Shown one piece after another: positions 1-53,763 of a stretch of 61,374 nt of DNA (position 1 is the first letter of the stretch; every line of letters begins with the position of its first letter). The notes below the pieces were generated by a model that was not told the DNA's origin, made no database searches, and saw only the letters and a list, made by a program, of their open reading frames with translations. Origin of the DNA: a virus (taxonomy: Duplodnaviria > Caudoviricetes); IMG/VR virus record IMGVR_UViG_3300049893_001396, positions 1 through 61,374 of that record, one strand, 5' to 3'. The position numbers and the translations under genes are program-made.

Positions 1-127
1 ATAGTTTAAGCAATTCCAGACCACGGACGGTCTGTTTGCCGGGTGGGGCGCCCTGCCCGAATCAAAGAACATGGAGGTTCTATATGAGTGGTTTTCAATC
101 AGCTACACCTGCGGGATATCAAATGGT
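1..127 (+). repeat. Exact 127-bp direct repeat of 51398-51524; imperfect homology continues through the CCC gene, its 3' spacer and the ferritin-like gene
   Basis: Base-by-base identity at offset 51,397; first mismatch T128 vs A51525. Confidence 0.95.
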
Positions 128-902
128 TTCGACTGGATATCCCGGCATGGGTGGATTCGGATTCGGGTCCGGTTTCGGACTTGACGCACTTCTGATCCTG
201 TTACTGCTTGGGCCGAATGGATTTGGACGCGGTGGGTACGGCTCACCAGCAGCCAATGCAGTTACGACTGACGTTGTTCTGCAACCGGCATTCCAGTCAC
301 TTCAGCAGCAGATCGCGCAACTCGCAGAAAATCAGGCTACCGCTGCGATCACGAATAAAATCGGCGATCAAATGCAGGCTCAGGCATCACAGGCCGGCTC
401 TATCGGCGCGGCTATCGGCGGGCTTCAGGCTTCTATTGAGAATAGCCGCTTCACGGCTCTTGATCAGAATAACAACCTGTATCGCGATATCACGGCCCAG
501 AATACTCAGGCTCTGCTGAATGCTAACCAGCAGACTCAAATCACCAATGGCCTGATCACCAACGGATTTAATCAGAACTATCTTGCTACGCTCACCGGGT
601 TCAATGGCGTAGAGAAATCCATTGACGGTTTGTCCCGCGAACAGGCTGAGTGTTGCTGTCAGATCAAGGAATCCATCCTGACAAACGCCCAGCGTGGTAT
701 CGATCTTCAGAACCAGATTCAGAAAGAGAATTTGATAAGCCAGCTGAACGACGCCAAGGCCCAGATCTCAAATCTGAGCCAGACCAACCAGCTGATCCAA
801 GCCATGCAGGCGCAGACAACCACGATTCTGCACCACATGTTTCCTTGGTATGGTAGCTCGAACGGAAACAACGGCAACAACGGAAACAACAGCGTCCGTT
901 AG
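84..902 (+). CDS. Gly-rich/hydrophobic N-terminus, Q/N-rich coiled-coil protein with ECCCQ motif (CCC protein, phage A copy)
   Basis: GGAGG RBS before ATG84; GMGGFGFGSGFGLDALLILLLLGPNGFGRGG segment, long Q/N heptads, ECCC; near-identical second copy at 51481 with mostly synonymous changes. Confidence 0.85.
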   Translation: MSGFQSATPAGYQMVSTGYPGMGGFGFGSGFGLDALLILLLLGPNGFGRGGYGSPAANAVTTDVVLQPAFQSLQQQIAQLAENQATAAITNKIGDQMQAQASQAGSIGAAIGGLQASIENSRFTALDQNNNLYRDITAQNTQALLNANQQTQITNGLITNGFNQNYLATLTGFNGVEKSIDGLSREQAECCCQIKESILTNAQRGIDLQNQIQKENLISQLNDAKAQISNLSQTNQLIQAMQAQTTTILHHMFPWYGSSNGNNGNNGNNSVR

Positions 903-1001
903 GCTGAACTGGATACAACGTATTGCAAAGCGGGTCTTCCGCATTTGAATCCCAACGCGCCCGGTATGTCCCTGCCGGGCGCTTCTTTAAGGAAGTGGGC
1001 T
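903..1001 (+). promoter_or_regulatory. Conserved structured intergenic element between CCC and ferritin-like genes
   Basis: Hairpins GCGG-gtctt-CCGC (930-942) and GCGCCCGG-N10-CCGGGCGC (957-982), stems unchanged in the phage B copy. Confidence 0.6.
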
Positions 1002-1526
1002 ATGACACCTGAACTTGTTAAGAAGTTAGACGACCTTATTTCAGAAGAACACCGGATCAGCCTAATCGAGGCCGACCACATGACGTTGCTCCAGTCGTAC
1101 GGGTACCCGGGCTTCAAACGGCAGCACCGGTACCTCCAGCGATGGCGGAACGAGACGGCACTCTGTCTCCGAAACTGGCTAACAGACAATTTTGACTACT
1201 ACCCTACTGTTTCAGTAAACTACACCACCCCTTCGCAGAAACCGACCTCATTTCTTGAGGCTGTCAGCGCAATTATTGAGGTGTACGAAGGTCTTTATAA
1301 GCATTACGTCGAAACATCGCGTGTAGCGGCAAATGAGGGTCTTGACGATCTTTTACAGGTTTTGCAGTGCAAAATAGGGTGGATTTCGAAGGTTTTGTGT
1401 AAATATAACCGGGATTTGCGGGAAGTGGGGAATGTCTCAGCTGATAAAGTGTACCTTCAGCTTAGGTCGGAGAAGTTGCATGAGAAGTATCGGAAGAAGG
1501 AAGAAAGTTTTAAAGTGGAGTATTGA
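1002..1526 (+). CDS. Ferritin-like four-helix-bundle protein
   Basis: RBS AAGGAAG; GYPGFKRQHRYL resembles the ferritin G-x-x-GF A/B loop; ~175 aa helical; homolog at 52402. Confidence 0.6.
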   Translation: MTPELVKKLDDLISEEHRISLIEADHMTLLQSYGYPGFKRQHRYLQRWRNETALCLRNWLTDNFDYYPTVSVNYTTPSQKPTSFLEAVSAIIEVYEGLYKHYVETSRVAANEGLDDLLQVLQCKIGWISKVLCKYNRDLREVGNVSADKVYLQLRSEKLHEKYRKKEESFKVEY

Positions 1527-1999: not shown

Positions 2000-2074
2000 G
2001 GGCTAGTGGCCAACTGGAAAGGCACTTGGTTTTCATCCAAGTGAGTGTGGGTTCAAATCCCACCTAGCCTACCA
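2000..2074 (+). tRNA. tRNA-Glu(UUC)
   Basis: Acceptor GGGCTAG/CTAGCCT, D-arm GCC/GGC, anticodon stem CTTGG/CCAAG with loop TT-TTC-AT, T-arm GTGGG-TTCAAAT-CCCAC, encoded CCA; extended -10 TGTTATAAT upstream. Confidence 0.88.
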
Positions 2075-2154
2075 TTTACCCGCAGACTCGGTGGGTGTAT
2101 CATGAACATCAGGGGACAATGATGCGAAAAACTTCGATGAGCGGGGAAGATAGC

Positions 2155-2454
2155 ATGTGGACAGACGACCAGAAAAAGTATTTGTCAGACCAGCTCCGGA
2201 TCCATACAACAACAATCATTTCAGAGTTAACCAAGATCATAAAAGAATGCGAAACGACCAGATGCTGCAAGGGCACCGACTTCAAATGCCTCGCTACCAA
2301 AGAGGACCTATCACTCCAGAACTTCAAATTTACTGCCAAACTTGTTGGACTCATCATTGTGACGATGTTCTTTGTCCAAGAGTTGGGCGGTCCTACGAAG
2401 GTGTTGATAGGGTGGGCGGCCAAGATGACCGCCACTGAGCAATTACAGCACTGA
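2155..2454 (+). CDS. Small coiled-coil protein with C-terminal TM segment (DUF1640/CCDC90-like LATKEDL; possible holin-like)
   Basis: LATKEDL motif then hydrophobic helix; homolog at 53178. Confidence 0.55.
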   Translation: MWTDDQKKYLSDQLRIHTTTIISELTKIIKECETTRCCKGTDFKCLATKEDLSLQNFKFTAKLVGLIIVTMFFVQELGGPTKVLIGWAAKMTATEQLQH

Positions 2455-2994
2455 AGCGAACGTACTATCCAGAAACGGAAGATCCCGGATCCACTCACAG
2501 TACTCCTGCCACGCAGGCATCTTGTGCCGTTTCCTCTGGTTGTAGATAGACTTCAGCTGGAGGTAGTTGGTGGTCACTACCGCAGACAGTCGCAGACCAA
2601 GGGGAAGCCCGAGTACATACTCCTCGAACTTGATTTCACCTTCCCTATACCGCTTTTGAAGTTTTATTGCCAGTATTCGGGCTTCAGAAGGGGTGCTGTC
2701 GGAGAAATCTAGGAACCACGGTTCGGCGGCTGAATGCATCTTCGAGGTGGACGACACGATGTCGTGGAAGTGGTAGCGCTGCCACTGGAGCCAGAATGAG
2801 TGGTCAGCGCGGAGCTTGTGCAGAACAGTGATACCCTTCAGAAAGCAGTCATGCCCGGATCCTACTGGAGACTTGGCAAGTGTCGAAGCTCTTTGGGCAG
2901 ACTCTTCTGGCTTAGCTGAATGGGGTAACCCACTGATCCACATACTCTCATTCAGTCCGGTGATAGATAGGGTTTCGACTACAATCTCACTCAT
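2443..2994 (-). CDS. ThyX-like (flavin-dependent thymidylate synthase-fold) phage protein
   Basis: GHDCFLKGI, QRYHF..SSTSKMH, NYLQLKSIYNQRKRHK..W..YCEWI motifs. Confidence 0.7.
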   Translation of the reverse strand: MSEIVVETLSITGLNESMWISGLPHSAKPEESAQRASTLAKSPVGSGHDCFLKGITVLHKLRADHSFWLQWQRYHFHDIVSSTSKMHSAAEPWFLDFSDSTPSEARILAIKLQKRYREGEIKFEEYVLGLPLGLRLSAVVTTNYLQLKSIYNQRKRHKMPAWQEYCEWIRDLPFLDSTFASVL

Positions 2995-3287
2995 AGGTAA
3001 CGCTCCTTTGATCGCTGGAGTTTCTTCTCAATTTCTGAACCTAGCATCTTGACAAGATCCACATCTTCAGTTTGCTCAATGTACTTAGCAAAATACTCCA
3101 GTGTAATGAGTACATCGGCAACCTCGCGCACAACTTCTAACACACTTCCAGAGTTTTGGAGCCTAATCATGGCTGCGGAACATTCGGACAGCTCTTCCGC
3201 GCACTTCAGAAGCTGTGCGGTGTGCCCGAACTTATCGTAGAGTTTATCAATTACTTGGCTGTTGTCTGAAAAATCATCAATGAACAT
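2991..3287 (-). CDS. MazG-like NTP pyrophosphohydrolase
   Basis: KCAEELSE...EVADV all-alpha NTP-PPase signature. Confidence 0.75.
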   Translation of the reverse strand: MFIDDFSDNSQVIDKLYDKFGHTAQLLKCAEELSECSAAMIRLQNSGSVLEVVREVADVLITLEYFAKYIEQTEDVDLVKMLGSEIEKKLQRSKERYL

Positions 3288-3296
3288 GTCTCCTCC

Positions 3297-3563
3297 TTAA
3301 TTCCCAATCGTCACGTTAACCGTCACCGGAATCTGTTTCAACGGTCCGTAAATACTAGCCAGACTGCGTTGGACGTGTGCGGCGGTCGCTGGTGACACTG
3401 TGAGTGTCTTCCCATCGATCCGCATCGTGACATTTGCGGTAGGGATAAACGCCCCGGATGTGGTCATAACCACGTTCCCAGTCGGTCCAGAGATCACCTG
3501 AATTCCGATAGGGTATGCTGATACTGATATCAAAAGAATTGCAATTGTGATTAATTTTCGCAT
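3297..3563 (-). CDS. Small exported hypothetical protein
   Basis: Signal peptide; nearly identical to 53497-53763. Confidence 0.75.
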   Translation of the reverse strand: MRKLITIAILLISVSAYPIGIQVISGPTGNVVMTTSGAFIPTANVTMRIDGKTLTVSPATAAHVQRSLASIYGPLKQIPVTVNVTIGN

Positions 3564-26986: not shown

Positions 26987-28420
26987 ATGGCACTCTCCAG
27001 AAAACAGGTCGAGTTCTATAACGAGTTCATCACGGGTCGACATACAGAGATGATGTATGGCGGTGCGGTGGGTGGCGGTAAGACGTACCTCATTCTGGGG
27101 ATCTTCAACGAGTTGTGTCGGAAGTACCCGGGAGTACGGCTTGGTGTCGTGCGCGGTACGTTCCCTAATCTTCGGGGTAATACGGTACCCAGTTATAAGA
27201 AGCTGATGAGCGACTATGGGATCACCGACGTACATCTGACGAAGAGTGAGCCATTCATCGCAACGTACCCTAACGGGTCCACAATCGAATTTATTGCGGT
27301 AAACGAACAGAAGGACAAGGATCACGACAAATTGAAGGGCCTTGAGCTTACAATGGTCGCCATAGACGAGGCGAATGAGATTTCACACGCGGCGTATGTG
27401 GTTCTGATCACTCGTACGGGTCGGTGGCGGAACGCGGAGTACGGGCTACCTCCTATTAAGATATGCACATGCAACCCGGCGAACAACTGGGTCAAACAGT
27501 ACTTCTACACACCTTGGAAAGAAGAGGGGCTACCAGAGGGTAGGTTTTATCTTCCAGCGTTACCGCATGATAATCCGTTCCTGAGTGAGGACTATCTGGC
27601 TCAGTTGGAGAGTTTGACGGGTGGGGCGTATCAGCGGTATGTACTGGGCAACTGGGACTTCGCAGAGGAGCTCAACCAGTTAGTCAGTATGGAGGATCTG
27701 GAGGGGTACTTCGGTGGATATGACGGTGTGTGGCGGGCACCCAGATTCATGGGGATCGACGTCAGTCGGCATGGGGCGGATAAGTCGATTATATATTACG
27801 CAGACGATAGGGGACTTCTGTTTTACGAGGAGTACAAGTTTGACGACCTCGTCAAGCTCAAAGATATTGTCAAGGAACGGATGGATGAGTATTCAGTTCG
27901 GGAGGACTGTGTGGGGGCGGATGCCATCGGAATTGGTTGGGGGCTCATAGACCTTCTGAAGCAGGATGGGATCCACATATACCCGTATCAGGGCTCTGAG
28001 CAGGCGACACCACGAGAACAGTGCCTACTTCCGGAAGTACTGTATGACGCGATGGAACAGAGGCGACGAACAGAGGCGAACTTCCTACTTCAGCAACACA
28101 TCCGGGAAACCACGGGTATGCAGTTCAGTAAGGGGTTGAAAGAGCAGGCGTTGCTGGTCAAGTACGCCATGGACAAGGCAGACAAGTTCGTCCGGATCGA
28201 GACTAAACTTGAGCAACGGGGGAGGCTCGGGTATTCACTGGATATTTGGGACGCGGCGGTGATCTGCAACTATATGCGAGTGTATAACGTGTCGGACGCG
28301 CTGGGTAATGCGTTCTCAGCCCTGACAGCGTGGGCTTCAGCAGAACGGGCGGAACTTCGGCGTGAATGCGGGACGAATCACAGAAAATATAGCACACTAG
28401 TTAAAAGTATGATATACTGA
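26987..28420 (+). CDS. terL: Terminase large subunit
   Basis: YGGAVGGGKT, IDEANE, TCNP, DNPFL, GIDVS nuclease motif. Confidence 0.95.
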   Translation: MALSRKQVEFYNEFITGRHTEMMYGGAVGGGKTYLILGIFNELCRKYPGVRLGVVRGTFPNLRGNTVPSYKKLMSDYGITDVHLTKSEPFIATYPNGSTIEFIAVNEQKDKDHDKLKGLELTMVAIDEANEISHAAYVVLITRTGRWRNAEYGLPPIKICTCNPANNWVKQYFYTPWKEEGLPEGRFYLPALPHDNPFLSEDYLAQLESLTGGAYQRYVLGNWDFAEELNQLVSMEDLEGYFGGYDGVWRAPRFMGIDVSRHGADKSIIYYADDRGLLFYEEYKFDDLVKLKDIVKERMDEYSVREDCVGADAIGIGWGLIDLLKQDGIHIYPYQGSEQATPREQCLLPEVLYDAMEQRRRTEANFLLQQHIRETTGMQFSKGLKEQALLVKYAMDKADKFVRIETKLEQRGRLGYSLDIWDAAVICNYMRVYNVSDALGNAFSALTAWASAERAELRRECGTNHRKYSTLVKSMIY

Positions 28421-28469
28421 TAAATGGAAAGGTCGGTTTATATTATACAACTGACCGACGAGGGTGACA

Positions 28470-29867
28470 ATGGCCAAGAAGACTCCTAAGAGTGAGAAAT
28501 TAGAATTCAACCCGAACATGAAGGTGGTTCAGTCTGGGACCAACTTCTCGTCCGGTTATTTGCGTGAAGACTACCTCGCCACTGCCAACGGTGCGACGTG
28601 GATGGCTGTGATCGACAAGATGCGGCGGCAGGACTCTGAGATTGCGCGGGTGTTGCGGACGATCTTCTTCCCCATTCTGGCAGCGAGTTATGAGTACCAT
28701 CCGAGTGATGACATGGACCAAGAACAGGTCCGGCAGTGCACGTACAAGAACAAGTTCTGGAAGAAGCGGATCGGGACACTCACATCCGGCGGGTTCTGTA
28801 GCCAGACATGGCGGACAATGCTTCGGCAATTCCTGAACTACCTGACGTTCGGGTATGCGATCTTCGAACCGGTATACTATGCGGTCGAGGATCCTGAGCT
28901 TGGAAACGTGATCACGATGCGGTCGTTGGGCATGATCCATCAGGCGACGGTAGAACGGTGGGAAATCAAGGACGGACAGGTGCTCAAGATCTACCAGAAG
29001 GTACCATCTGGGGCCGGTACGTCTGGATGGTTCGACACTAAGAACATGGTGATACTGACGAACGAGCAGGAAGGTGACAACGTCGAGGGAATCTCACTGA
29101 TCCGGCCTGTGTACGGAAACTATATACGGAAGGACCTACTCCATAAGCTCCTTATAATCGGGGCGGAGAAGACGGCGGTTGGGACTCCGATCGCATTTGT
29201 ACCGAACAACTGGATAACAAGCGCGAACAGTTCAGAATTAACGGCACTTCGGAGCATCATGCGGAACTACACATCCCACGAGGATGCGTATCTTATCCTT
29301 CCGAACTCCCTGAAAGACGAGGGATTCCGGATCGAGAGTACGTCATTTAACGCATCAGAGCTTCTGAACTGCATAAAGAACGAGAATATCGCGATTATGG
29401 ACAGTGTTCTGGCGTCATTTTTGAACATTGGGATCTCAAAAGCGGGGGGTAACTCGCAAAACACGGGTCAAATGACACTGTTCTTGTCGAGTTTGCAGAG
29501 TATTGCAGAGGAAGTTACTTGGGTACGGGACGAACTCGCGCATCAGGCGTATGTTCTGAACTTCGGAGAGCCGCAAATACGGATAGACACCACAATCAGC
29601 GGGATTACGCTTGACAGTGCCGAAAAAGCAGTAAATGAGCTGCGGGCATTGGCTACTGGGGCACTAATTGAGCCGGATGAAGTGCTGGAGAAGTGGATAC
29701 GGAACAAGTGGAAGCTGCCTCCCAAGGATCCGGAGACTTCCAGAAAGACATTCAGCGATCCGCAGAGTATGGCAGTGGACAAGAGCGTGTCGAATGACTT
29801 CCCTACTCCAGATAATGAGCGCGAAGAGCAGGCAAACCCGGAGGAGATGGGCGATGAAGACGTATGA
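28470..29867 (+). CDS. Portal protein (DUF935/Mu gp29-like)
   Basis: FGYAIFEPVY, GISLIRPVY, EKTAVGTP; follows terL. Confidence 0.85.
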   Translation: MAKKTPKSEKLEFNPNMKVVQSGTNFSSGYLREDYLATANGATWMAVIDKMRRQDSEIARVLRTIFFPILAASYEYHPSDDMDQEQVRQCTYKNKFWKKRIGTLTSGGFCSQTWRTMLRQFLNYLTFGYAIFEPVYYAVEDPELGNVITMRSLGMIHQATVERWEIKDGQVLKIYQKVPSGAGTSGWFDTKNMVILTNEQEGDNVEGISLIRPVYGNYIRKDLLHKLLIIGAEKTAVGTPIAFVPNNWITSANSSELTALRSIMRNYTSHEDAYLILPNSLKDEGFRIESTSFNASELLNCIKNENIAIMDSVLASFLNIGISKAGGNSQNTGQMTLFLSSLQSIAEEVTWVRDELAHQAYVLNFGEPQIRIDTTISGITLDSAEKAVNELRALATGALIEPDEVLEKWIRNKWKLPPKDPETSRKTFSDPQSMAVDKSVSNDFPTPDNEREEQANPEEMGDEDV

Positions 29868-31818: not shown

Positions 31819-32835
31819 ATGGGATACTCAAATTTAAGCGGTACTCAAGTTGTAACATACTATGAGCACTGGGATCGTATGCTCAAAGGGTATAACTACA
31901 ACTCTGACAGCCTTATCGGCAAAAAGTTGGTGCCTGAATTCGCCGTAAACGCAAAGCGCGGGTCTATGAAGACCGAAGCAACAGGCGCACAGGAATATCT
32001 GCGTGTAATCGGCAATAAAGACCTTTCAGTGGGTTATGGCGACTATCCTACCCTGTTCTTTCAAATGAGCTCCACCACACTGTGGACTCTGGAAGAGCAC
32101 GGCATCGCCACCCAGTTCAATAAGAACGATGGCGAAGACTGGAACCCGGCAAATCCGGCACAGGGCATGCGTGATTATGGTACGATGACTGCAAAGTGGT
32201 TGCGCCAAATCCGCGAACTGTCTCGTGAAGTTGAGGTTCAGACCATTTTCCAGACTGCTGGTAACTTCGGTGGGAGCAATAAGGTGACCTTGACTGGTGC
32301 AGATCAGTGGAGTGCCGCAACTGCGGACATCCCCACCCAGATGGCAACCGCCCGCGCACGGATCAAAACCGTGTCAGGCCGCCTTCCGAACGTGCTAGCC
32401 ACTTCTTGGCTGGTGTGGGAAAAGCTGAAGAACCATCCGAGCATTAAGAAGATGGCATACCAGATGGGCAACACTGACGCACTGAACATCCGTGCATTGA
32501 CGGTGGCTGAAGTTGCTGCTGCACTTGAACTGGATACTATTCTGGTTGGTAGCGAACAGTACGAAACCAAGAAATCTGGGGAAACTTCTTCACGCGACTG
32601 GATCTGGGGCAAGCATGCCACTCTGGCATACCAGAACTTCAGCCCGTCTCCGACCCTGTTCGATACTTCATTCTGCTACAAGTTTCGTCGTGGCGACGAG
32701 GTGTTCGATTCCTTCTATCCTTCTACGGATAAGGGCAACAAGCAGGAAGAGATTCGGCAGACATTGAGTGAAGAGTATGATATCATGATTGTAGATGCAA
32801 ATGCCGGTTATCTGTTCATTAACGCAATCGCGTAA
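31819..32835 (+). CDS. Major capsid protein (lambda gpE-like HK97 fold)
   Basis: 338 aa; QWSAATADI...SGRLPN...LKNHPSI...AGYLFINA. Confidence 0.88.
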   Translation: MGYSNLSGTQVVTYYEHWDRMLKGYNYNSDSLIGKKLVPEFAVNAKRGSMKTEATGAQEYLRVIGNKDLSVGYGDYPTLFFQMSSTTLWTLEEHGIATQFNKNDGEDWNPANPAQGMRDYGTMTAKWLRQIRELSREVEVQTIFQTAGNFGGSNKVTLTGADQWSAATADIPTQMATARARIKTVSGRLPNVLATSWLVWEKLKNHPSIKKMAYQMGNTDALNIRALTVAEVAAALELDTILVGSEQYETKKSGETSSRDWIWGKHATLAYQNFSPSPTLFDTSFCYKFRRGDEVFDSFYPSTDKGNKQEEIRQTLSEEYDIMIVDANAGYLFINAIA

Positions 32836-44463: not shown

Positions 44464-45723
44464 ATGGGGATCAAGATTTCCGCTTTTTCGAGTAAGACGC
44501 CAGCCGCCGACCACATCATTCCGATAGTGGACACGGACGACCCTTTGCTGGTCTACAACTACAAGACCACATTAGAGGATTTACAGGACTTCATACTCGG
44601 CTCCGGCGGATCAGTCACATATACGACAATAGCCGCGACAACTGCAACAATCACGAACCTTACTTGCTCTTCATCATTCACAGGATACCAAGGCTCTTTT
44701 ACCAACCTCACCACAACCACCTGTCTGGCCACAACTGCGACTGTGACTAATCTGGTATTCGCAGACGGCACTCGTATGACTTCAGCTGCTGCGACTGCAA
44801 CTGGAATGACCTCAACTACTGATCTTACTTTTGCAGCTGATACGGACAACAATGGTTCTGGGGTTATATCATTTGCGACTAGAGGTACTGAGCGACTTGG
44901 TATAGCCAATACAGGTGCGGTATCTATTTCAGGCGGCCTCAACGTCGGCACTGCAACTGGTGCGGGGGCTGGGGAAATTAAGGCTAGTGCTGGCGGATCT
45001 TTCATGGGCAACGTCGGCATCGGAACGACTGCGCCAGCTAATAAATTAGATGTTAGTTTAGGTGATAATCAATCGCTCAATCTAACATCATCTGGCGCTA
45101 ATTATACATCATATATTAATTTTGTTGATTCAGACGCCGCAAATTCTGGACGAATCAGCTACGATCATTCTTCAAATGCAATGCGATTCGCAACTGGAAC
45201 TGCGGCAGGAACGGAAAGAGTGAGGATTGATGTAAACGGCAACGTCGGCATCGGTACGACTGCGCCAGATGTTTTAGCACACCTATACAGAACCAGCTCT
45301 GACACAACAATAACTAATTACGACGGCGCGACAGCTGCTACGTTAAAGTTAAACAATCCAGACACAACCTCTGGAACGTACTGCGCATTAGCTCTTAGGG
45401 CTGGCACATCAGATAATGCAATTATTTGTATTAATAGAGGTACAAATCAGGGCGATATAGCGTTTTTAACAGACAATGCAGGTATAGGTGAAAGAGTCAG
45501 AATTTTAGCAAACGGCAACGTCGGCATCGGTACGACTGCGCCAGCCGCCGTACTCCACGGTACTGGTTCCACAATCATAGGTGCAGCAACTTCCGCAATT
45601 GCGGATGGGAGTATCGGCAATAGTCAAGTGAATGTGTGGTTGGACGAGTCTGGGAATAACCTGAAGTTCCGGATTAAGTATTCGAATGGTACGTTAAAAA
45701 CTGGGACACTGGCTTTGACATAA
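44464..45723 (+). CDS. Tail fibre with GNVGIGTTAP repeats
   Basis: Three GNVGIGTTAP repeats; own extended -10 (TGCTATAAT) upstream. Confidence 0.8.
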   Translation: MGIKISAFSSKTPAADHIIPIVDTDDPLLVYNYKTTLEDLQDFILGSGGSVTYTTIAATTATITNLTCSSSFTGYQGSFTNLTTTTCLATTATVTNLVFADGTRMTSAAATATGMTSTTDLTFAADTDNNGSGVISFATRGTERLGIANTGAVSISGGLNVGTATGAGAGEIKASAGGSFMGNVGIGTTAPANKLDVSLGDNQSLNLTSSGANYTSYINFVDSDAANSGRISYDHSSNAMRFATGTAAGTERVRIDVNGNVGIGTTAPDVLAHLYRTSSDTTITNYDGATAATLKLNNPDTTSGTYCALALRAGTSDNAIICINRGTNQGDIAFLTDNAGIGERVRILANGNVGIGTTAPAAVLHGTGSTIIGAATSAIADGSIGNSQVNVWLDESGNNLKFRIKYSNGTLKTGTLALT

Positions 45724-46533: not shown

Positions 46534-46883
46534 GTTTCTCACTTGACCGTGGCCATGCGAATGTTCTGATATACAATTTTGACGACAACACATTGTTTGA
46601 TGATATCAGTACGTTCGAGTTCTGGTTCACGGTCAAGGAGTCCATTGGTGACGATGATTCTGCGGCTCTGATTGCGAAGACAGAGGCTGATATGACCGTT
46701 CTGAACAATACGGGCGGGGATCCTATGATACTCACCATCCCACTCACAGAGTCTGATATGGATATCACCCCGGGTCATTACTATTATGATCTGTGGTGTA
46801 AGCGTGGGAACACACTTCCAGCCAACAAGTTCGATTCCGGCCGTTTTGACGTGACCCAACCTGTGACGAGGAGTATAGCCTAA
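46530..46883 (+). CDS. BppU N-terminal-like Ig-fold protein
   Basis: FTVK...LTIPLTESD..ITPGHYYYDL...SGRFDV. Confidence 0.6.
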   Translation: MSFSLDRGHANVLIYNFDDNTLFDDISTFEFWFTVKESIGDDDSAALIAKTEADMTVLNNTGGDPMILTIPLTESDMDITPGHYYYDLWCKRGNTLPANKFDSGRFDVTQPVTRSIA

Positions 46884-49309
46884 TGTCCAACGTAAAGACG
46901 ATACATATCAATGAGAACACAGTCCGGGTATCCGTGTCGGTAATACAGGGTAGCGTCGGCGGCGGCGGTACTGGAGACGTCACAGGACCGGTCACATCAA
47001 CTGATAACGCGATCACACGCTGGAACGGTACGAGTGGTGACACTGTTCAGAACTCACTCGTTACGATCGACGATAATGGGTCGATCAATATCCCTTCAAG
47101 TCAAGCGTACAAGATCAATGGCACTGCGCTCGCGGCTTCAGATGTTGGTGCATCAGCTGTGGGACACAATCACTCCGGTACTTACGAGCCCGCGAACGCC
47201 AATATCCAGAACCACATCAGCAGTACATCGAATCCTCATTCAGTCACCGCAGCACAGGTCGGATTGGGAAGCGTCACCAACAATGCGCAAGTCAAGAAGG
47301 TATCTTCAAGCACCGACAACGCGGTTATGCGATGGGACGGGGCAACTGGCGATACTCCGCAGGACTCTTTAGTCACTATTGCCGACACGACAGGTGCAAT
47401 TAGTATCAACGCCCATACGGCTATAACGGATCCGGGTGCAACACCATTGGGTAAATTCCTCCGGGATGACGGAACTTGGCAGACGGTATCAGGTGGCGGA
47501 GGGACTGGCGATGTAGTTGGCCCGGCTTCTAGTACTGACAATGCGATAGCACGCTTTGATTCGACTACTGGGAAGTTGCTTCAGAATTCACTCGTTACGG
47601 TGGATGATAATGGGTCTGTCAACATTCCATCCAGTCAGGCATATAAAATCAATGGTACAGCGCTCGCGGCTTCAGATGTCGGTGCGGAACCGGCGAATGC
47701 CAATATCCAGAACCACATTAGCAGTACATCGAACCCGCATTCGGTAACTTACTCGCAAGTAGGGGCTGAGCCTGCTAATGCCAACATTCAGAACCATATC
47801 AGCAGCACATCGAATCCTCATTCGGTAACTGCTACTCAGGTGGGACTTGGAAATGTTACCGACAACGCTCAAGTAAAGAAGATTTCCTCCAGCACTGACA
47901 ACGCCATAATCAGATGGGATGGGACAACTGGCGATACCCCTCAGAACTCGCTCGCAACCGTTGATGACAGTGGCTCGATCAATGTCCCAGCAGGGCAGGG
48001 ATACCAGATAAACGGTACGGCACTGGCTGCTTCGAACGTGAATGCGCAAGCCTTGCATGGCTTCGTAAATCGTACGGATTCTGTTCTTGGAATGTCTTCA
48101 AATGACCTTCAGGTGACTACGTCTGGTAGTTATGTGTTTTATGTGAACGGCACTAAGTTCACGGTAAGCACCACAAAGGCTGTGACGATAACTGCCGATC
48201 TTGACGAGACTTTCGTATACTTCGACAACACTGGCACCCTTCAGAAGAGTACAACACCGTGGGATATCAAGGATCTCACAGTAATACCCGTAGCACTTGT
48301 GTATAAGGATGGTTCGAATTACCAAGTATATGATGAGCGGCACACCTATATACGATCATTGCCATGGCACAGCTGGGCGCACACTACTATCGGGGCACGG
48401 TACTATGGGACGGGATTGGCGGGCACGTTCACAAACACGACGCTATCAATCACTCAGGGAACTATTGCTGACGAGGATCTGATCCACGACACAGGCGGTA
48501 CCAAGACAACCGCCACACTCTGGTACAGGAGCACCGGTGCAACTGCGATGCGGTTTGAAGCGCTTCAGGCATATCCATATAAACAGGACACAGGAACTAT
48601 CCAATACGACAACGCTGGAACCCTTACCAACGTGTCTACCAGCCAGTATGTGAACTCGTGGGTATACGCGGTACCGGGAAAGTCCTCTACAACAGCAGAA
48701 ATCGCTGTCGTAGTTGGTCAAGCGCAGTATTCAAGTCTCACGGCGGCGCAATCTGGTAGTGCGCCAGCGTTTCCGGGTATGTCAACACTCGAATGGAAGC
48801 TACTCTATCGCGTGACTTATCGAAATGTTGCCGGAACCGCGACGTATGTGGAAGCAGTGGACTACCGCGCTATACAGTCCGGTCCAGCGGTCAGTTTGAA
48901 CGTGACAGATCATGCGTCACTGACTAACCGTGATGCTGTGAACTCACATCCAGTGACAGCGATTTCAGGTATGAATAGCACGCTGTTTTTCGTAATTAAT
49001 GGTGGCGGATCGGTCCCGGCCACTGGTGCATACTGCCTACTGCCGGCACCATACGCATGCACGATAGACAGTTGGTACATTGCAGCGGATGCGTCCGGGT
49101 CTGCGGTGGTTGATATCAAGGTGGGCGGTTCGTCCATTGTTGGCGGATCAGGCAACAAACCTACCCTCTCCAGCGCGCAGACAAACAGCGCCAACGTGTC
49201 CAGCTGGTCAGATACTAGCATTGCTCAGAATGATCTGTTCACGGTAAATCTGGACAGTGTGACGACGTGTAAAATAATCCATGTTCAGTTGAGGGTGACT
49301 AGAGTATGA
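46883..49309 (+). CDS. Long tail fibre with internal repeats
   Basis: Repeated STDNA..R[WF][DN] and EPANANIQNHISSTSNPHSVT blocks. Confidence 0.8.
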   Translation: MSNVKTIHINENTVRVSVSVIQGSVGGGGTGDVTGPVTSTDNAITRWNGTSGDTVQNSLVTIDDNGSINIPSSQAYKINGTALAASDVGASAVGHNHSGTYEPANANIQNHISSTSNPHSVTAAQVGLGSVTNNAQVKKVSSSTDNAVMRWDGATGDTPQDSLVTIADTTGAISINAHTAITDPGATPLGKFLRDDGTWQTVSGGGGTGDVVGPASSTDNAIARFDSTTGKLLQNSLVTVDDNGSVNIPSSQAYKINGTALAASDVGAEPANANIQNHISSTSNPHSVTYSQVGAEPANANIQNHISSTSNPHSVTATQVGLGNVTDNAQVKKISSSTDNAIIRWDGTTGDTPQNSLATVDDSGSINVPAGQGYQINGTALAASNVNAQALHGFVNRTDSVLGMSSNDLQVTTSGSYVFYVNGTKFTVSTTKAVTITADLDETFVYFDNTGTLQKSTTPWDIKDLTVIPVALVYKDGSNYQVYDERHTYIRSLPWHSWAHTTIGARYYGTGLAGTFTNTTLSITQGTIADEDLIHDTGGTKTTATLWYRSTGATAMRFEALQAYPYKQDTGTIQYDNAGTLTNVSTSQYVNSWVYAVPGKSSTTAEIAVVVGQAQYSSLTAAQSGSAPAFPGMSTLEWKLLYRVTYRNVAGTATYVEAVDYRAIQSGPAVSLNVTDHASLTNRDAVNSHPVTAISGMNSTLFFVINGGGSVPATGAYCLLPAPYACTIDSWYIAADASGSAVVDIKVGGSSIVGGSGNKPTLSSAQTNSANVSSWSDTSIAQNDLFTVNLDSVTTCKIIHVQLRVTRV

Positions 49310-50947: not shown

Positions 50948-51016
50948 TGGCGTCAGGATAGTTTTTACAGGCATCAGGCCATTGTAATACCAGCGATTAG
51001 CGCTATACTGTTCTCA

Positions 51017-51100
51017 GAGCTTCACGGCTCGACGCGCGGCGGTCCGGTTTCCTCGTCACAGAGGATTACCCCACACGGGGTCCCGGGCCGCTTTTCTTTT
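51017..51100 (+). ncRNA. Structured leader (hairpin + three-way junction + U tract) upstream of the Q-rich gene
   Basis: P1 51039-47/51083-91, P2 51050-54/51061-65, P3 51068-72/51077-81; promoter TTGTAA-16-TATACT at 50982-51009. Confidence 0.55.
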
Positions 51101-51113
51101 ATCAGGGGGCAGT

Positions 51114-51368
51114 ATGTTCCAACAACTTGCACAAATTCAGCTTGCAATGTCAGACCCGACACAACGCGCTCAGATAATTAATCAGCTCCCTCAATCATTA
51201 CACTATTTATTCGATAACAACCAACGCTTCCAACAACTCGGACAGGACAAAATAGCCCAGCTTCTTGATGCGCTGAACTGCGTGCAGTCTGGTAGACCAG
51301 TTCCGCAATTGCCTTGGTTGGATGAGCTAAAAGCACAGATACCGCAAAAAGCAGAAGTGGTTGATTAG
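51114..51368 (+). CDS. Small Gln-rich helical protein, first gene of the CCC cassette
   Basis: AGGGGG RBS; strongly Gln-rich. Confidence 0.7.
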   Translation: MFQQLAQIQLAMSDPTQRAQIINQLPQSLHYLFDNNQRFQQLGQDKIAQLLDALNCVQSGRPVPQLPWLDELKAQIPQKAEVVD

Positions 51369-51480
51369 TTTTGATATGCGTTTGATATAGGTTTGCTATA
51401 GTTTAAGCAATTCCAGACCACGGACGGTCTGTTTGCCGGGTGGGGCGCCCTGCCCGAATCAAAGAACATGGAGGTTCTAT

Positions 51481-52302
51481 ATGAGTGGTTTTCAATCAGC
51501 TACACCTGCGGGATATCAAATGGTATCGACTGGATATCCCGGCATGGGTGGATTCGGATTCGGGTCCGGTTTCGGACTTGACGCACTTCTGATCCTGTTA
51601 TTGCTGGGCCCGAATGGATTTGGACGCGGTGGGTACGGCTCACCAGCAGCCAATGCAGTTACGACTGACGTTGTTCTGCAACCGGCATTCCAGTCACTTC
51701 AGCACCAGATCGCGACTCTCGCAGAAAATCAGGCTACCGCTGCGATCACCAATAAAATTGGCGATCAAATGCAGGCTCAGGCTTCACAGGCCGGTTCTAT
51801 CGGCGCGGCTATTGGCGGGCTTCAGGCTTCTATTGAGAATAGCCGCTTCACGGCGCTGGACCAAAATAACAACCTGTATCGCGATATCACGGCCCAGAAT
51901 ACTCAGGCGCTTCTGAACTCTAACCAGCAGACTCAGATCACCAACGGACTGATCACTAATGGGTTCAACCAGAATTATCTGGCCACGCTCACCGGGTTCA
52001 ATGGCGTAGAGAAATCCATTGACGGTTTGTCCCGCGAACAGGCTGAATGTTGCTGCCAAATCAAAGAATCCATCCTGACCAACGCCCAACGTGGTATCGA
52101 TCTTCAGAACCAGATCCAGAAAGAGAATCTGATCAGCCAGCTGAATGACGCCAAGGCACAGATTTCAAATCTGAGCCAGACCAACCAGCTGATCCAAGCC
52201 ATGCAGGCGCAGACTACTACCATCCTGCATCACATGTTTCCTTGGTATGGTAGCTCAAACGGAAACGGCAACGGAAACGGCAACAGCGCAGTCGTCCGTT
52301 AA
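51481..52302 (+). CDS. CCC protein, phage B copy
   Basis: 3 amino-acid changes versus the copy at 84, apart from the extreme C-terminus. Confidence 0.85.
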   Translation: MSGFQSATPAGYQMVSTGYPGMGGFGFGSGFGLDALLILLLLGPNGFGRGGYGSPAANAVTTDVVLQPAFQSLQHQIATLAENQATAAITNKIGDQMQAQASQAGSIGAAIGGLQASIENSRFTALDQNNNLYRDITAQNTQALLNSNQQTQITNGLITNGFNQNYLATLTGFNGVEKSIDGLSREQAECCCQIKESILTNAQRGIDLQNQIQKENLISQLNDAKAQISNLSQTNQLIQAMQAQTTTILHHMFPWYGSSNGNGNGNGNSAVVR

Positions 52303-52401
52303 GTTGAACTGGCTCCAACGATTAGCAAAGCGGGTCTTCCGCATTTGAACCCTACGCGCCCGGTATGTCCCTTCCGGGCGCTCACTTATGAAAGGACTGT
52401 C

Positions 52402-52926
52402 ATGGAAAAGGAATTATTCACACTGATTGAAAAACTGATATCCGACGAACACCGGATGTCTATTGTTGAGGCTGAGCACATGAGCGTATTCCAGTCACGT
52501 GGTCTGCCAGGATTCAAACGTCAGCATCGGTACCTTGCCCGGTGGCGAACTGAGGCGGCTTTAAAGCTCCGGTGTTGGGTCACAGATAAAACAGGCATGC
52601 GGCCATTCGTTTCTGTATCAATCACATCATCGGTGGTGTCAGAATCTGCTCTAGACTGCATCATATCATTAATCGGTGAATACGACACACTTATGAAAAA
52701 TTATGTCGTAGCGGCAAAGATGGCAGGCGATAAAGGCCACGACGACTTACTACAGATACTTGAGTATCAGATTTGTTGGCTGTCAAAGACGATTATGAAA
52801 TACCGGCGCGATTACCAGGAAATTTCAAATGTGAATTCAGATTCCGTTTATATCCAACTCAGAAGCGAATCGCATCATGAGAAGTTTAAAAAAAAGGAAG
52901 CCGATTTCCGCATATGCGCTGAATAA
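52402..52926 (+). CDS. Ferritin-like protein, phage B copy
   Basis: GLPGFKRQHRYL; roughly half of residues shared with 1002-1526. Confidence 0.6.
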   Translation: MEKELFTLIEKLISDEHRMSIVEAEHMSVFQSRGLPGFKRQHRYLARWRTEAALKLRCWVTDKTGMRPFVSVSITSSVVSESALDCIISLIGEYDTLMKNYVVAAKMAGDKGHDDLLQILEYQICWLSKTIMKYRRDYQEISNVNSDSVYIQLRSESHHEKFKKKEADFRICAE

Positions 52927-53120: not shown

Positions 53121-53177
53121 GCGGGGTGGGGTGGCTAAACGCCACCACCCCGATTGAATTCAGATCGGGGTGGATAC

Positions 53178-53519
53178 ATGGCAGGGTTCAATTCAGAACA
53201 GCGCAATAGTCTTCAAAAGGAACTGAAAATCATCACATTAGAGACAGAGAAAATGCTATCCGCAACGGAAACGCGGATAGTGGAAGCGGTAAAGGCTGAG
53301 ATAAAAAATTGTCACGATTCACGGCCCTGCATGGGCACTGAATTTAAAAGGTTAGCCACAAAGGAAGATATTTCCATAACATCATATCCATTTATAGCGA
53401 AGATTGCGGTAATCAGTCTGCTGGTCATGACAATGGCCACCATAGCTGGTGGCCCTGTTGATTTACTTTTAAAGCTGGTCCCAAAGGCATTCGCGGCTAC
53501 GGCGCAATCGTCACGTTAA
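53178..53519 (+). CDS. DUF1640-like TM protein, homolog of 2155-2454
   Basis: CMGTEFKRLATKEDIS vs CKGTDFKCLATKEDLS. Confidence 0.6.
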   Translation: MAGFNSEQRNSLQKELKIITLETEKMLSATETRIVEAVKAEIKNCHDSRPCMGTEFKRLATKEDISITSYPFIAKIAVISLLVMTMATIAGGPVDLLLKLVPKAFAATAQSSR

Positions 53520-53763
53520 CCGTCACTGGAATCTGTTTCAACGGTCCGTAAATACTTGCCAGACTGCGCTGAACGTGTGCGGCCGTCGCTGGTGACACTG
53601 TGAGTGTCTTCCCATCGATCCGCATCGTGACATTTGCGGTAGGGATAAACGCCCCGGATGTGGTCATAACCACGTTACCAGTTGGACCGGATATCACCTG
53701 AATGCCCATGGGGTACGCTGAAACTGATATCAAAAGAATTGCAATTGTGATTAATGTTCGCAT
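53497..53763 (-). CDS. Small exported protein, near-identical to 3297-3563
   Basis: Sequence identity. Confidence 0.75.
   Translation of the reverse strand: MRTLITIAILLISVSAYPMGIQVISGPTGNVVMTTSGAFIPTANVTMRIDGKTLTVSPATAAHVQRSLASIYGPLKQIPVTVNVTIAP

What the first reader, a model, noticed from the sequence alone, without database searches (positions are those of the whole stretch)
84..1526. Uncharacterised cassette (Q-rich protein, Gly-rich/TM coiled-coil CCC protein, degenerate ferritin) in the lysis-cassette slot, shared by two different phages
Seen: after the last tail gene comes 51114 (Q-rich), then CCC (51481/84), then ferritin-like (52402/1002), with its own promoter and RNA structures at each junction. 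CCC is under strong purifying selection between A and B (many synonymous changes, 3 amino-acid changes in the body), whereas the ferritin partner has drifted. CCC layout is a Gly-rich hydrophobic segment, long Q/N heptads, ECCC, then a second helix. The ferritin keeps the GxPGF loop, but the helix-B ExxH ferroxidase motif is replaced by RWRxExA. Inference: a co-assembling system, such as a membrane-inserting trimeric coiled coil or filament (the layout recalls class I fusion proteins: fusion peptide-HR1-Cys-HR2) with a ferritin-fold chaperone or metal partner. Possible roles are egress, dormancy or host remodelling. I recall similar gene trios in other phages, but no known function.
Basis: partly seen in the sequence, partly recalled or inferred. 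Interest (0 to 1): 0.85.

Follow-up and report, generated by a model that had tools for sequence, protein, structure and literature searches.

The report
Widespread phage CCC protein with dead-ferritin partner
Two related freshwater phages share a small gene cassette whose core is a glycine-rich, membrane-anchor-like helical protein with an invariant triple cysteine, followed by a ferritin-shaped protein that has lost its iron site; the core protein belongs to a large, unstudied family found in many tailed phages, including laboratory coliphages, so its function can now be tested.

Summary
The genes are real and lie where stated: Q-rich ORF 51114-51368, CCC 84-902 / 51481-52302, ferritin-like FER 1002-1526 / 52402-52926. 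CCC is 97% identical between the two copies (dN/dS 0.08); FER is 49% identical.

FER is a true ferritin-fold protein (AF2 pLDDT 90; Foldseek TM 0.8-0.88 to FtnA-type ferritins). Its di-iron ligands are replaced, and none is conserved anywhere in its family.

CCC has no Pfam, NCBIfam or PDB match. It links by profile to three PHROGs of unknown function and to 1,623 protein clusters. Members occur in crAss-like phages, Drexlerviridae, Queuovirinae, Eiauvirus and Clostridium perfringens phages, including BASEL coliphages Bas08 and Bas22.

FER almost always follows CCC (35 of 39 FER loci). CCC usually has other partners (FER in 2 of 45 CCC loci). The cassette is accessory: crAss001 lacks it, its relative cr116_1 has it.

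Best reading (0.4): a late-expressed accessory module built on a membrane-anchored, Cys-clamped helical rod, with FER as a non-enzymatic partner. The main rival is an accessory virion fibre.

Homology to class I fusion proteins, a dedicated promoter, unusual RNA structures and a lysis role are not supported. Independent contigs show the window wraps a circular ~51.4-kb phage A into a rarer relative B.

The parts
51114..51368 (+). Q-rich 84-aa ORF directly upstream of CCC. It belongs to phage A, whose genome closes from here onto position 1.
   Evidence: ORF. It has no family hit. Homologues lie upstream of CCC in L001/L063 (31.7% identity over 63 aa to L001). The junction to the A-type CCC is bridged by an independent contig.
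1..83 (+). Conserved 5' leader of CCC, 99% identical to 51398-51480, with two hairpins and a GGAGG ribosome-binding site
   Evidence: The fold has z -1.73, which is not exceptional.
84..902 (+). CCC_A, 272 aa. It has a Gly-rich N-terminus with a hydrophobic segment (aa 24-42), predicted helices at aa 70-161 and 169-252 with a break at the invariant G-F-N, and CCC at aa 190-192.
957..982 (+). 10-bp GC hairpin in the CCC-FER spacer, also present in copy B
   Evidence: The region's energy is not above shuffles (z -0.76).
1002..1526 (+). FER_A, 174 aa, a ferritin-fold protein without a di-iron site
51481..52302 (+). CCC_B, 273 aa, 97% identical to CCC_A
52402..52926 (+). FER_B, 174 aa, 49% identical to FER_A

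Best explanation
The cassette is an accessory, horizontally mobile late-gene module of tailed phages.

Its core, CCC, is a rod-like protein. It has a short acidic or uncharged N-tail, one glycine-zipper-like hydrophobic segment that anchors it in, or inserts it into, a membrane, and a Gly-rich linker. Two long Q/N-rich helices follow, joined at an invariant G-F-N turn, and an invariant Cys-Cys-Cys in the second helix clamps an oligomer by disulfides or a bound metal.

In the window's lineage the next gene, FER, is a ferritin-fold protein that has lost iron oxidation. It keeps two conserved basic motifs, G-F-K-R-x-H-R-Y and L-H-x-K-Y-K-x-K-E. I infer that FER is a non-enzymatic structural partner or chaperone of CCC, and that the complex acts at the host envelope late in infection, in exclusion of other phages, timing of release or another membrane step.

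Shown: the genes, purifying selection on CCC, the size and spread of the family, the ferritin fold and lost ligands, the one-sided FER-to-CCC linkage, and the accessory distribution.

Inferred: membrane anchoring and topology, oligomerisation through CCC, physical CCC-FER contact, and the envelope-directed role.
For: CCC is a real, constrained gene: dN/dS 0.077, 18 close relatives including itself, and 1,623 clusters at E<=1e-3 with 415 at E<=1e-10.

The architecture is constant. In 43 of the 45 viral loci an ORF covers the match, and all 43 carry CCC behind an N-terminal Gly-rich hydrophobic stretch. F162 and C190-192 are invariant in 36 diverse sequences. The best 19-aa Kyte-Doolittle window averages at least 1.5 in 31 of 36 sequences. 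The N flank holds no K/R in 29 of 36, and the 25 residues after the window hold at least one K/R in 27 of 36. Longer forms simply have longer rods behind the same N-terminal anchor.

None of the partner proteins I read begins with an evident signal peptide (by eye).

The cassette is accessory and mobile. It is present in cr116_1 between the endolysin gene and the capsid genes, and absent from that position in crAss001, which belongs to the same subfamily. It follows tail-fibre genes in the window, eiAU, JenP1, haarsle, Bas08 and Bas22. It follows the major capsid gene in environmental crAss-like loci. It sits among early or recombination genes in C. perfringens phage HMD-PC1 and Bacteroides phage C3_41T2LP. 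A small gene that one record annotates as terminase small subunit/excisionase recurs upstream.

FER has a ferritin fold. Its ligands are lost, and no E/H column is conserved in 32 family members. CCC lies upstream of FER on the same strand in 33 of 39 loci by HMM, plus 2 rescued; the other 4 have under 700 nt of upstream sequence. Many of these loci are duplicates of one contig.

Four-helix or metal-type partners recur in other CCC clades. One is a Rubrerythrin-family protein next to CCC in L040 (25.8 bits against a cut-off of 22.8). Another is a His-rich protein annotated 'putative pyrophosphatase' in Bas22.
Against: No experiment or proteome places CCC in a membrane. The hydrophobic core is short (about 12-15 residues) and glycine-rich, so it could instead be a buried anchor peptide of a fibre.

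The composition is that of extracellular fibrous proteins: Q+N+G about 35%, K+R 4%.

Pro/Thr-rich linkers and terminal C-G-C / C-C-G-C tails in enteric and gut crAss members suit an oxidising, extracytoplasmic or virion location better than the cytoplasm.

The AF2 model of CCC is poor (pLDDT 52, pTM 0.22), so helices, hairpin and oligomer are weakly founded.

Most CCC genes lack FER, so FER cannot be essential to CCC's core activity.

Single small proteins suffice for known exclusion or lysis-timing functions (recalled), so a 3-6 gene module is unexplained.
Confidence: 0.4

Rival explanations
1. CCC is an accessory virion fibre (head fibre or tail whisker). The Gly-rich hydrophobic N-terminus plugs into a capsid or tail pocket, the helices form the shaft, the Cys triplet and the Cys-rich tails cross-link chains, the small beta-sandwich neighbours form the distal knob, and FER and the other helical neighbours are assembly helpers.
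For: The position fits: directly after tail-fibre genes or after the crAss capsid gene.

The composition is fibre-like, low in charge and rich in Q/N/G.

The +1 neighbours are small proteins that look all-beta by eye, of about 95-150 aa. One cluster resembles the BclA C-terminal knob (E 1.2e-5, below the cut-off) and a 'collagen like minor tail' PHROG (E 2.6e-4).

GenBank records call members 'outer capsid protein/viral fiber'.

In Bas22 the whole CCC module is fused behind a fibre protein whose C-terminal part matches, by eye, the intramolecular chaperone seen in the JenP1 'endosialidase-like' protein.

crAss001 head fibres gp21 and gp29 bind hexon pockets by their N-termini, are not universal, and the authors expect uncharacterised analogues (passages of PMC10172136).

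C-terminal Cys-rich tails and a P/T linker also fit.
Against: The strongly hydrophobic L/I/W/F stretch is unusual for a soluble fibre.

In HMD-PC1 and C3_41T2LP the gene lies among early or recombination genes.

In Bas22 the CCC part lies behind the chaperone domain. From recalled knowledge of K1F and T5 fibres, that domain is cut off the mature fibre.

The window's cassette has no beta-sandwich neighbour.

The 'fiber'/'spike' names in the records are unverified annotations.
Confidence: 0.25
2. CCC and its neighbours are non-structural assembly chaperones for the adjacent tail fibres or spikes, nucleating trimerisation, possibly at the membrane.
For: The BASEL record annotates the Bas22 fusion protein as 'putative lateral tail fiber chaperone', and PJ16 carries a similar name. 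The gene is adjacent to fibre genes in siphoviruses. In Bas22 it is fused to an intramolecular-chaperone-type domain.
Against: The annotation is positional, and no paper using that phrase was found. The cassette also occurs away from fibre genes. The fusion looks like a deletion joining neighbouring genes, because JenP1 has them separate. Nothing explains why a chaperone would need an invariant CCC and a hydrophobic anchor.
Confidence: 0.1
3. The cassette is part of the lysis or egress machinery: a spanin-like or holin-regulating membrane rod, as the 'lysis-cassette slot' suggests.
For: The N-terminal hydrophobic segment, two helical domains with a hinge, and conserved Cys resemble the i-spanin Rz layout (recalled). 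In cr116_1 and cr4_1 the cassette stands within a few genes of the annotated holin and endolysin. I recognised no endolysin or holin in the window, though only 28 window ORFs were scanned and the rest were read by eye. A 119/121-aa protein with a hydrophobic stretch near its C-terminus follows FER.
Against: The N flank lacks the positive charges of an N-in anchor. No lipoprotein partner gene is embedded or adjacent. The family also occurs in phages of Gram-positive C. perfringens, which have no outer membrane. crAss001 lyses its host without the cassette. From recall, Drexlerviridae and Queuovirinae carry their own lysis cassettes elsewhere.
Confidence: 0.1
4. The module handles a metal or redox species: the Cys triplet and Cys/His-rich tails bind a metal or cluster, and ferritin- or rubrerythrin-type partners store or deliver it.
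For: Cys- or His-rich features recur: the CCC triplet, terminal C-G-C tails, a Cys-rich N-terminus in the c5 partner, and a His-rich N-terminus in the enteric +1 protein. Ferritin-superfamily neighbours occur in two separate clades.
Against: The FER family has no conserved metal ligands at all. Most cassettes have no ferritin-type gene. No known metal-binding family matched.
Confidence: 0.1

Closest known systems
Bacterial/archaeal non-heme ferritin (FtnA type; e.g. PDB 1eum, 3qz3, 2x17)
   Same: FER shares the four-helix bundle, the long B-C loop and the short fifth helix. TM is 0.8-0.88 over about 160 residues. Profile similarity is weak but consistent (E 4e-4 to 1e-2, aligned 2-125). Phage-encoded ferritin/Dps-like proteins are the best matches in BFVD.
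   Different: In the alignment the glutamate of FtnA's N-L-E-L-Y is kept. The tyrosine seven residues on is alanine, and the E-E-x-x-H stretch reads W-R-x-x-S/T. FtnA residue numbers and ligand roles are recalled. No E/H column is conserved in 32 family members. There is no Pfam Ferritin hit. The family has its own conserved basic motifs, and its median pI is 7.7. Cage assembly is untested.
PHROGs phrog_16490, phrog_9288, phrog_8119 (CCC) and phrog_17879 (FER), all 'unknown function'
   Same: All 10 diverse CCC homologues tested hit one or more of the three CCC PHROGs, with E down to 1e-97. FER relatives hit phrog_17879 (E 4e-9 to 5e-6).
   Different: The window's own CCC reaches phrog_16490 only at E 0.014, and its FER copies reach phrog_17879 at 0.0055 or not at all. 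Membership rests on intermediate sequences and shared invariant motifs. These families carry no functional knowledge.
i-spanin Rz of phage lambda (recalled)
   Same: Both have an N-terminal hydrophobic segment, two helical domains separated by a hinge, and conserved cysteines that could link chains.
   Different: CCC shows no sequence match, no positively charged N-terminus and no o-spanin partner. It also occurs in phages of Gram-positive hosts and is missing from related phages.
Class I viral fusion subunits (influenza HA2, HEF2)
   Same: Both have a glycine-rich hydrophobic peptide followed by long helices. Some GenBank records name family members 'spike protein/glycoprotein'.
   Different: Profile hits are not significant (E 0.1-0.22 with A1, 2.6-2.7 with A4). 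No C-terminal transmembrane anchor is visible, and no cleavage-activated precursor is evident.
crAss001 head fibres gp21 and gp29 (PMC10172136, passages read)
   Same: They are small accessory capsid-bound fibres encoded near the capsid or lysis genes, and not universal among crassviruses.
   Different: No sequence comparison was made here. crAss001 itself has no CCC gene between gp28 and gp32. gp21 and gp29 are only 97 and 122 aa by the record; from the passages read they are a trimer and a dimer with small C-terminal domains, the gp29 one a beta-sandwich, and nothing there describes a hydrophobic anchor or a Cys triplet.

Membership tests
Ferritin (Ftn-type) | Four-helix bundle with a long B-C loop and a C-terminal E helix | tested here: met
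   The AF2 model has pLDDT 90.1 and pTM 0.83, with five helices. The top Foldseek PDB hits are all ferritins, with TM 0.8-0.88 and 336 hits at E<=1e-3.
Ferritin (Ftn-type) | Di-iron ferroxidase ligands (E17, E50, H53, E94, Q127, E130 in FtnA; numbering recalled) | tested here: not met
   In the HMM alignment to 1eum, the E-E-x-x-H stretch reads W-R-x-x-S/T and Y24 is alanine. Only the E17 and E94 equivalents are kept in the window's clade. No conserved E/H column exists in helices B or D across 32 family members.
Ferritin (Ftn-type) | Match to the curated Pfam Ferritin model | tested here: not met
   Neither FER copy has a Pfam hit at E<=1 apart from an unrelated weak one. NCBIfam gives none.
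Ferritin (Ftn-type) | 24-mer (or 12-mer) cage | not testable with these tools
This needs SEC-MALS or EM.
CCC superfamily (phrog_16490 / 9288 / 8119) | N-terminal Gly-rich hydrophobic segment, invariant G-F-N turn motif and invariant C-C-C in the second helix | tested here: met
   A3 has 36 sequences with F162 and C190-192 invariant. CCC is present in all 43 ORFs recovered from the 45 loci. The A3 profile finds Bas08, cr116_1, cr4_1 and C3_41T2LP proteins at E 1e-16 to 7e-11.
CCC superfamily (phrog_16490 / 9288 / 8119) | Direct significant match of the window protein to the PHROG models | tested here: inconclusive
   phrog_16490 scores E 0.014 only. The link runs through intermediates.
i-spanin (Rz-like) | N-in/C-out anchor with a basic N-terminus and a cognate outer-membrane lipoprotein gene embedded or adjacent | tested here: not met
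   The N flank has no K/R in 29 of 36 sequences. No lipoprotein ORF overlaps or follows CCC on the same strand. The family occurs in C. perfringens phages.
Class I viral fusion protein | Detectable homology to HA2/HEF2/gp41-type subunits and a C-terminal membrane anchor | tested here: not met
   PDB profile searches give E 0.1-2.7. The C-terminus is a polar N/G tail.
Virion structural protein | Detected in purified particles | not testable with these tools
   No proteome was found: the eiAU paper's text mentions no mass spectrometry, and crAss001 lacks the gene.

The most novel reading that the evidence does not exclude
CCC proteins are a new class of phage membrane-inserting machines. They would be Cys-clamped helical-hairpin oligomers whose glycine-zipper peptide enters a host membrane, working like a fusion or pore-forming protein though unrelated to class I fusion proteins or spanins. 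They would be held inactive or assembled by lineage-specific helpers, such as a ferritin-fold protein that has given up iron chemistry. This would define an unrecognised envelope step shared by crAss-like phages, T1-like and Queuovirinae coliphages and clostridial phages.
Probability: 0.15. Interest if true: 0.9.

Novelty: categorically new. Interest (0 to 1): 0.62.

Why it matters
A single unstudied protein architecture recurs in 1,623 protein clusters, across phages of Bacteroidota, Proteobacteria and Firmicutes, including abundant gut crAss-like phages. It keeps an invariant triple cysteine under strong purifying selection, yet no database or searchable paper assigns it a function.

The family is present in BASEL coliphages that grow on E. 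coli K-12 (Bas08, Bas22), so deletion, proteomics and topology mapping are immediately possible.

The obligate pairing of a catalytically dead ferritin fold with CCC is also a clear case of a metabolic fold recruited to a structural or regulatory role in viruses.

Tried and rejected
- **Complex prediction.** CCC(60-272) with FER gave no answer (ipSAE 0.00 and 0.00). This is no evidence either way.
- **CCC structure.** The AF2 model was too poor (pLDDT 52) to justify a fold search, so none was run.
- **Family and structure libraries.** Pfam, PHROGs and NCBIfam on the window's own proteins gave nothing significant. PDB profile searches with A1 and A4 gave only weak coiled-coil, HA2 and HEF2 hits.
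- **Cultured phages.** tblastn with the window's CCC and with L018's CCC found no match. Matches came only with more distant family members.
- **Genomes.** No whole genome is held for the window. One FER relative is labelled as coming from a Bacteroidota MAG.
- **Promoters, terminators, RNA.** The scan was at chance level, Rfam found only the tRNA, and leader and spacer folds were unexceptional. A T-A-n-n-T-T-T-G motif lies at 51388-51395; it would fit a Bacteroidota -7 box (recalled consensus) but is untested.
- **RNA evidence.** No RNA holder was listed.
- **Literature.** The five PHROG ids, 'DUF7841' and 'lateral tail fiber chaperone' each returned 0 papers. The eiAU paper (passages) has no proteomics. 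The E. coli HS phage preprint (passages) says nothing on the cassette. The phage Tn-seq preprint (outline only) names JS26 and PCH45, which I did not compare with the CCC hit lists. Supplements are closed and may hold proteomic tables.
- **Rejected readings.** The cr4_1 'sigma factor/ubiquitin-like' gene upstream of CCC clusters with DUF7841 proteins, so I do not count it as a regulator. FER's net charge is near neutral, which gives no support for Dps-like DNA binding.
Full report
**What is in the window.** The window is a tailed-phage genome. It encodes a large terminase (26987-28420), portal (28464-29867), major head protein (31819-32835), tail fibres (44464-45723, 46883-49309) and, on the minus strand, DNA polymerase, helicase and primase.

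After the last tail genes come three further ORFs on the plus strand: an 84-aa Q-rich ORF (51114-51368), CCC (51481-52302) and the ferritin-like FER (52402-52926). A second CCC-FER pair opens the window (84-902, 1002-1526). The start codons are set by a GGAGG before ATG 84 / 51481 and by the homologues' N-termini.

**Two phages, one wrap-around contig.** The two ends of the window are alike only in patches. The segment 1-1159 matches 51398-52559 at 88.5%, and four shorter matches follow.

In the one run that holds the stretch (X1, labelled freshwater sediment metagenome, 0.88 of the sampled words), a 735-nt contig of depth 72 bridges 51015-51749. All 8 of its differences are the letters of copy A. 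Pieces identical to copy B have depth 12-26 (letters compared by eye).

So the Q-rich gene joins CCC_A in an abundant, circularly closing phage of about 51.4 kb, and the window then continues into a rarer relative. X1 may be the sample the window came from, so this is not independent of the assembly's data, only of its assembler.

**Selection.** CCC_A and CCC_B are 97% identical in protein, with dS 0.30, dN 0.024 and dN/dS 0.077. FER is 49% identical with saturated dS. The amino-acid changes in CCC are three in the body plus the N/G tail.

**FER is a ferritin that no longer makes the iron site.** FER has 6 relatives (itself included) among 5.8 billion proteins. Loci brought more.

- A 9-sequence alignment folds with pLDDT 90.1 and pTM 0.83 into five helices.
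- Foldseek returns only ferritins at the top, from P. furiosus, V. cholerae and E. coli FtnA, with TM 0.8-0.88 and 336 hits at E<=1e-3.
- The sequence profile reaches FtnA-type ferritins at E 4e-4 to 1e-2, aligned over positions 2-125.
- In that alignment the first glutamate (FtnA E17; numbering recalled) is kept. The E-E-x-x-H of helix B reads W-R-x-x-S/T, and Y24 is alanine.
- In the wider family of 32 distinct sequences, no acidic or histidine column of helices B or D is conserved. The conserved motifs are instead G-x-x-G-F-K-R-x-H-R-Y and L-H-x-K-Y-K-x-K-E.
- No Pfam or NCBIfam model matches.
- In BFVD the nearest structures are phage proteins named Dps or ferritin.

**CCC belongs to a large, unnamed family.** The close clade has 18 proteins. 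It shows an invariant CCC, a hydrophobic D-A-L-L-I-L-L-L-L-G-G stretch and a P-A-F-Q-S-L-Q motif.

- A pattern scan of viral contigs gave 45 loci. In 43 an ORF covers the match, and all 43 have CCC behind a Gly-rich hydrophobic N-terminus.
- Ten diverse members all hit phrog_16490, phrog_9288 or phrog_8119, all of unknown function. None hits Pfam.
- A 36-sequence profile finds 1,623 cluster representatives at E<=1e-3, 415 at E<=1e-10 and 44 at E<=1e-30 among 1.84 billion.
- Longer members just have longer helical parts behind the same N-terminal anchor.
- ESM Atlas neighbours are viral hypothetical proteins.
- The AF2 monomer is of low confidence (pLDDT 52). It shows helices 70-161 and 169-252, broken at the invariant G-F-N.
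- The best 19-residue hydrophobic window averages at least 1.5 (Kyte-Doolittle) in 31 of 36 sequences. The N flank has no K/R in 29 of 36, and the 25 residues after the window hold at least one K/R in 27 of 36. Q+N+G make up about 35% and K+R about 4% of the window's protein.

**Where the family occurs.** tblastn with distant members finds 132, 46 and 37 phage records. They include:

- Edwardsiella phage eiAU;
- Queuovirinae: JenP1, CAjan and BASEL Bas22;
- Drexlerviridae: haarsle and BASEL Bas08;
- Sashavirus and Yersinia phages;
- six C. perfringens phages and Butyrivibrio phage Ceridwen;
- many gut crAss-like genomes and Bacteroides phage C3_41T2LP.

Record names for the gene are 'hypothetical', 'spike protein/glycoprotein', 'outer capsid protein/viral fiber', 'putative sugar-binding protein' and 'putative lateral tail fiber chaperone'. 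I found no paper on any of these.

**Gene neighbourhoods.** Seen from FER, CCC lies upstream on the same strand in 33 of 39 loci. Two more were rescued: L078 holds a fragment, and L060 holds a divergent member seen by eye. The last four have under 700 nt of upstream sequence. Several loci are the same contig fetched twice.

Seen from CCC, only 2 of 45 loci carry FER. The exact trio Q-rich-CCC-FER recurs in L001/L063. Other arrangements are:

- c45-c46-CCC-c2-FER;
- c12-c7-CCC-c5-FER-c27, whose elements also appear in the cultured C. perfringens phage HMD-PC1 (c7-c211-CCC-c5-x-x-FER);
- c9-CCC-c2-c4-c3-DUF7841 in crAss-like loci, in some directly after the Crass_capsid gene;
- CCC-phrog_9157-phrog_8329-phrog_7239 in enteric phages, after the fibre gene;
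- CCC next to a Rubrerythrin-family protein in L040.

The +1 proteins c2, c5 and c55 are small and look all-beta by eye. c55 resembles the BclA C-terminal domain but falls below the cut-off. c7 is phrog_21718.

**Accessory status.** In cr116_1 (Steigviridae) the cassette stands between the L,D-carboxypeptidase gene and the capsid genes. It is preceded by a small gene annotated as terminase small subunit/excisionase, which is homologous to c9. crAss001, of the same subfamily, goes holin gp28, gp29, endolysin gp30, gp31, capsid gp32 with no such cassette. The passages of its structural atlas that I read (PMC10172136) name the capsid, portal-vertex and tail components without any such protein. 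The module is therefore dispensable for a complete crassvirus particle and is gained or lost between relatives.

**The Bas22 fusion.** In Bas22, one 510-aa ORF carries three parts. These are a fibre-like N-terminus, a stretch that by eye matches the C-terminal chaperone part of JenP1's 'endosialidase-like' protein, and then the whole CCC module from its Gly-rich segment onward. JenP1 has two separate genes. This looks like a deletion that joined neighbours. It shows that a free N-terminus is not indispensable, or that CCC is not essential there. It is weak evidence for a functional link to fibres.

**Interpretation.** The constant feature is an anchor-plus-rod protein with a Cys triplet. The partners vary by lineage.

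I favour (0.4) a membrane-anchored, Cys-clamped helical oligomer acting at the host envelope late in infection, with FER as a non-enzymatic partner in this lineage. The conserved hydrophobic segment with its charge asymmetry, the partners that show no evident signal peptide, the accessory distribution and the variable insertion sites all fit that reading.

The fibre rival (0.25) is serious. It is favoured by the fibre-like composition, the Cys-rich and P/T-rich C-termini in other clades, the beta-sandwich neighbours and the positions next to fibre and capsid genes.

Chaperone, lysis and metal readings are each possible at about 0.1.

Nothing supports homology to class I fusion proteins. The promoter and RNA-structure claims do not exceed chance. 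The CCC-FER complex prediction gave no verdict.

**Limits.**
- No virion proteome, expression data or experiment bears on the family.
- Homology between the window's CCC and the enteric and clostridial members rests on profiles and shared invariant motifs, not on a direct significant pairwise match.
- FtnA residue numbers, spanin and fibre-chaperone biology, and the Bacteroidota promoter consensus are recalled, not taken from a call.

Noticed in passing
window 1-61374 (junction 51397/51398): The window appears to be a wrap-around assembly. A circular phage A of about 51.4 kb (contig depth 72-94 in run X1) continues at a shared segment into a rarer relative, B (depth 12-26). The window starts exactly where the similarity begins.
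   Followed up: yes
window 2095-2454 (+) and 53154-53519 (+): A 119/121-aa protein follows FER (and the tRNA in copy A). It has a Cys-rich middle and a hydrophobic stretch near the C-terminus, and is 32% identical between A and B. It could be a holin-like or tail-anchored membrane protein. No family hit was found.
   Followed up: partly
window 3297-3563 (-) and 53497-53763 (-): An 88-aa protein with a signal-peptide-like N-terminus is 95% identical between the two phages (dN/dS 0.12). It is one of the few segments they share besides CCC.
   Followed up: partly
window 2000-2074 (+): A tRNA-Glu (anticodon TTC) lies just downstream of FER_A. Copy B has no tRNA called at the matching place.
   Followed up: no
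window 46883-49309 (+): The 808-aa tail fibre carries internal direct repeats (62-202 nt, 69-87% identical) that encode a repeated E-P-A-N-A-N-I-Q-N-H-I-S-S-T-S-N-P-H-S-V-T unit.
   Followed up: no
window 2991-3287 (-): A 98-aa protein has, by eye, paired acidic helix motifs of the MazG type. A MazG-like 'putative pyrophosphatase' is also the +1 partner of CCC in enteric phages. No family search was run on it.
   Followed up: no
L090 3981-5513 (Bas22 bas22_0024) versus L047 3844-5759 (JenP1): In Bas22 a fibre protein with an intramolecular-chaperone-type domain is fused in frame to the complete CCC module. JenP1 has the same two parts as separate genes.
   Followed up: partly
L049 5033-5659 (cr4_1 gp15): The gene annotated 'RNA polymerase sigma factor/ubiquitin-like protein' clusters with DUF7841 proteins, which are recurrent members of the CCC neighbourhood. 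The record's name is probably wrong.
   Followed up: partly
BFVD hits: Several phage proteins named 'Prohead protease' (333-763 aa) contain a ferritin/Dps-like domain, which hints at ferritin-fold cargo inside capsids, as in encapsulins.
   Followed up: no
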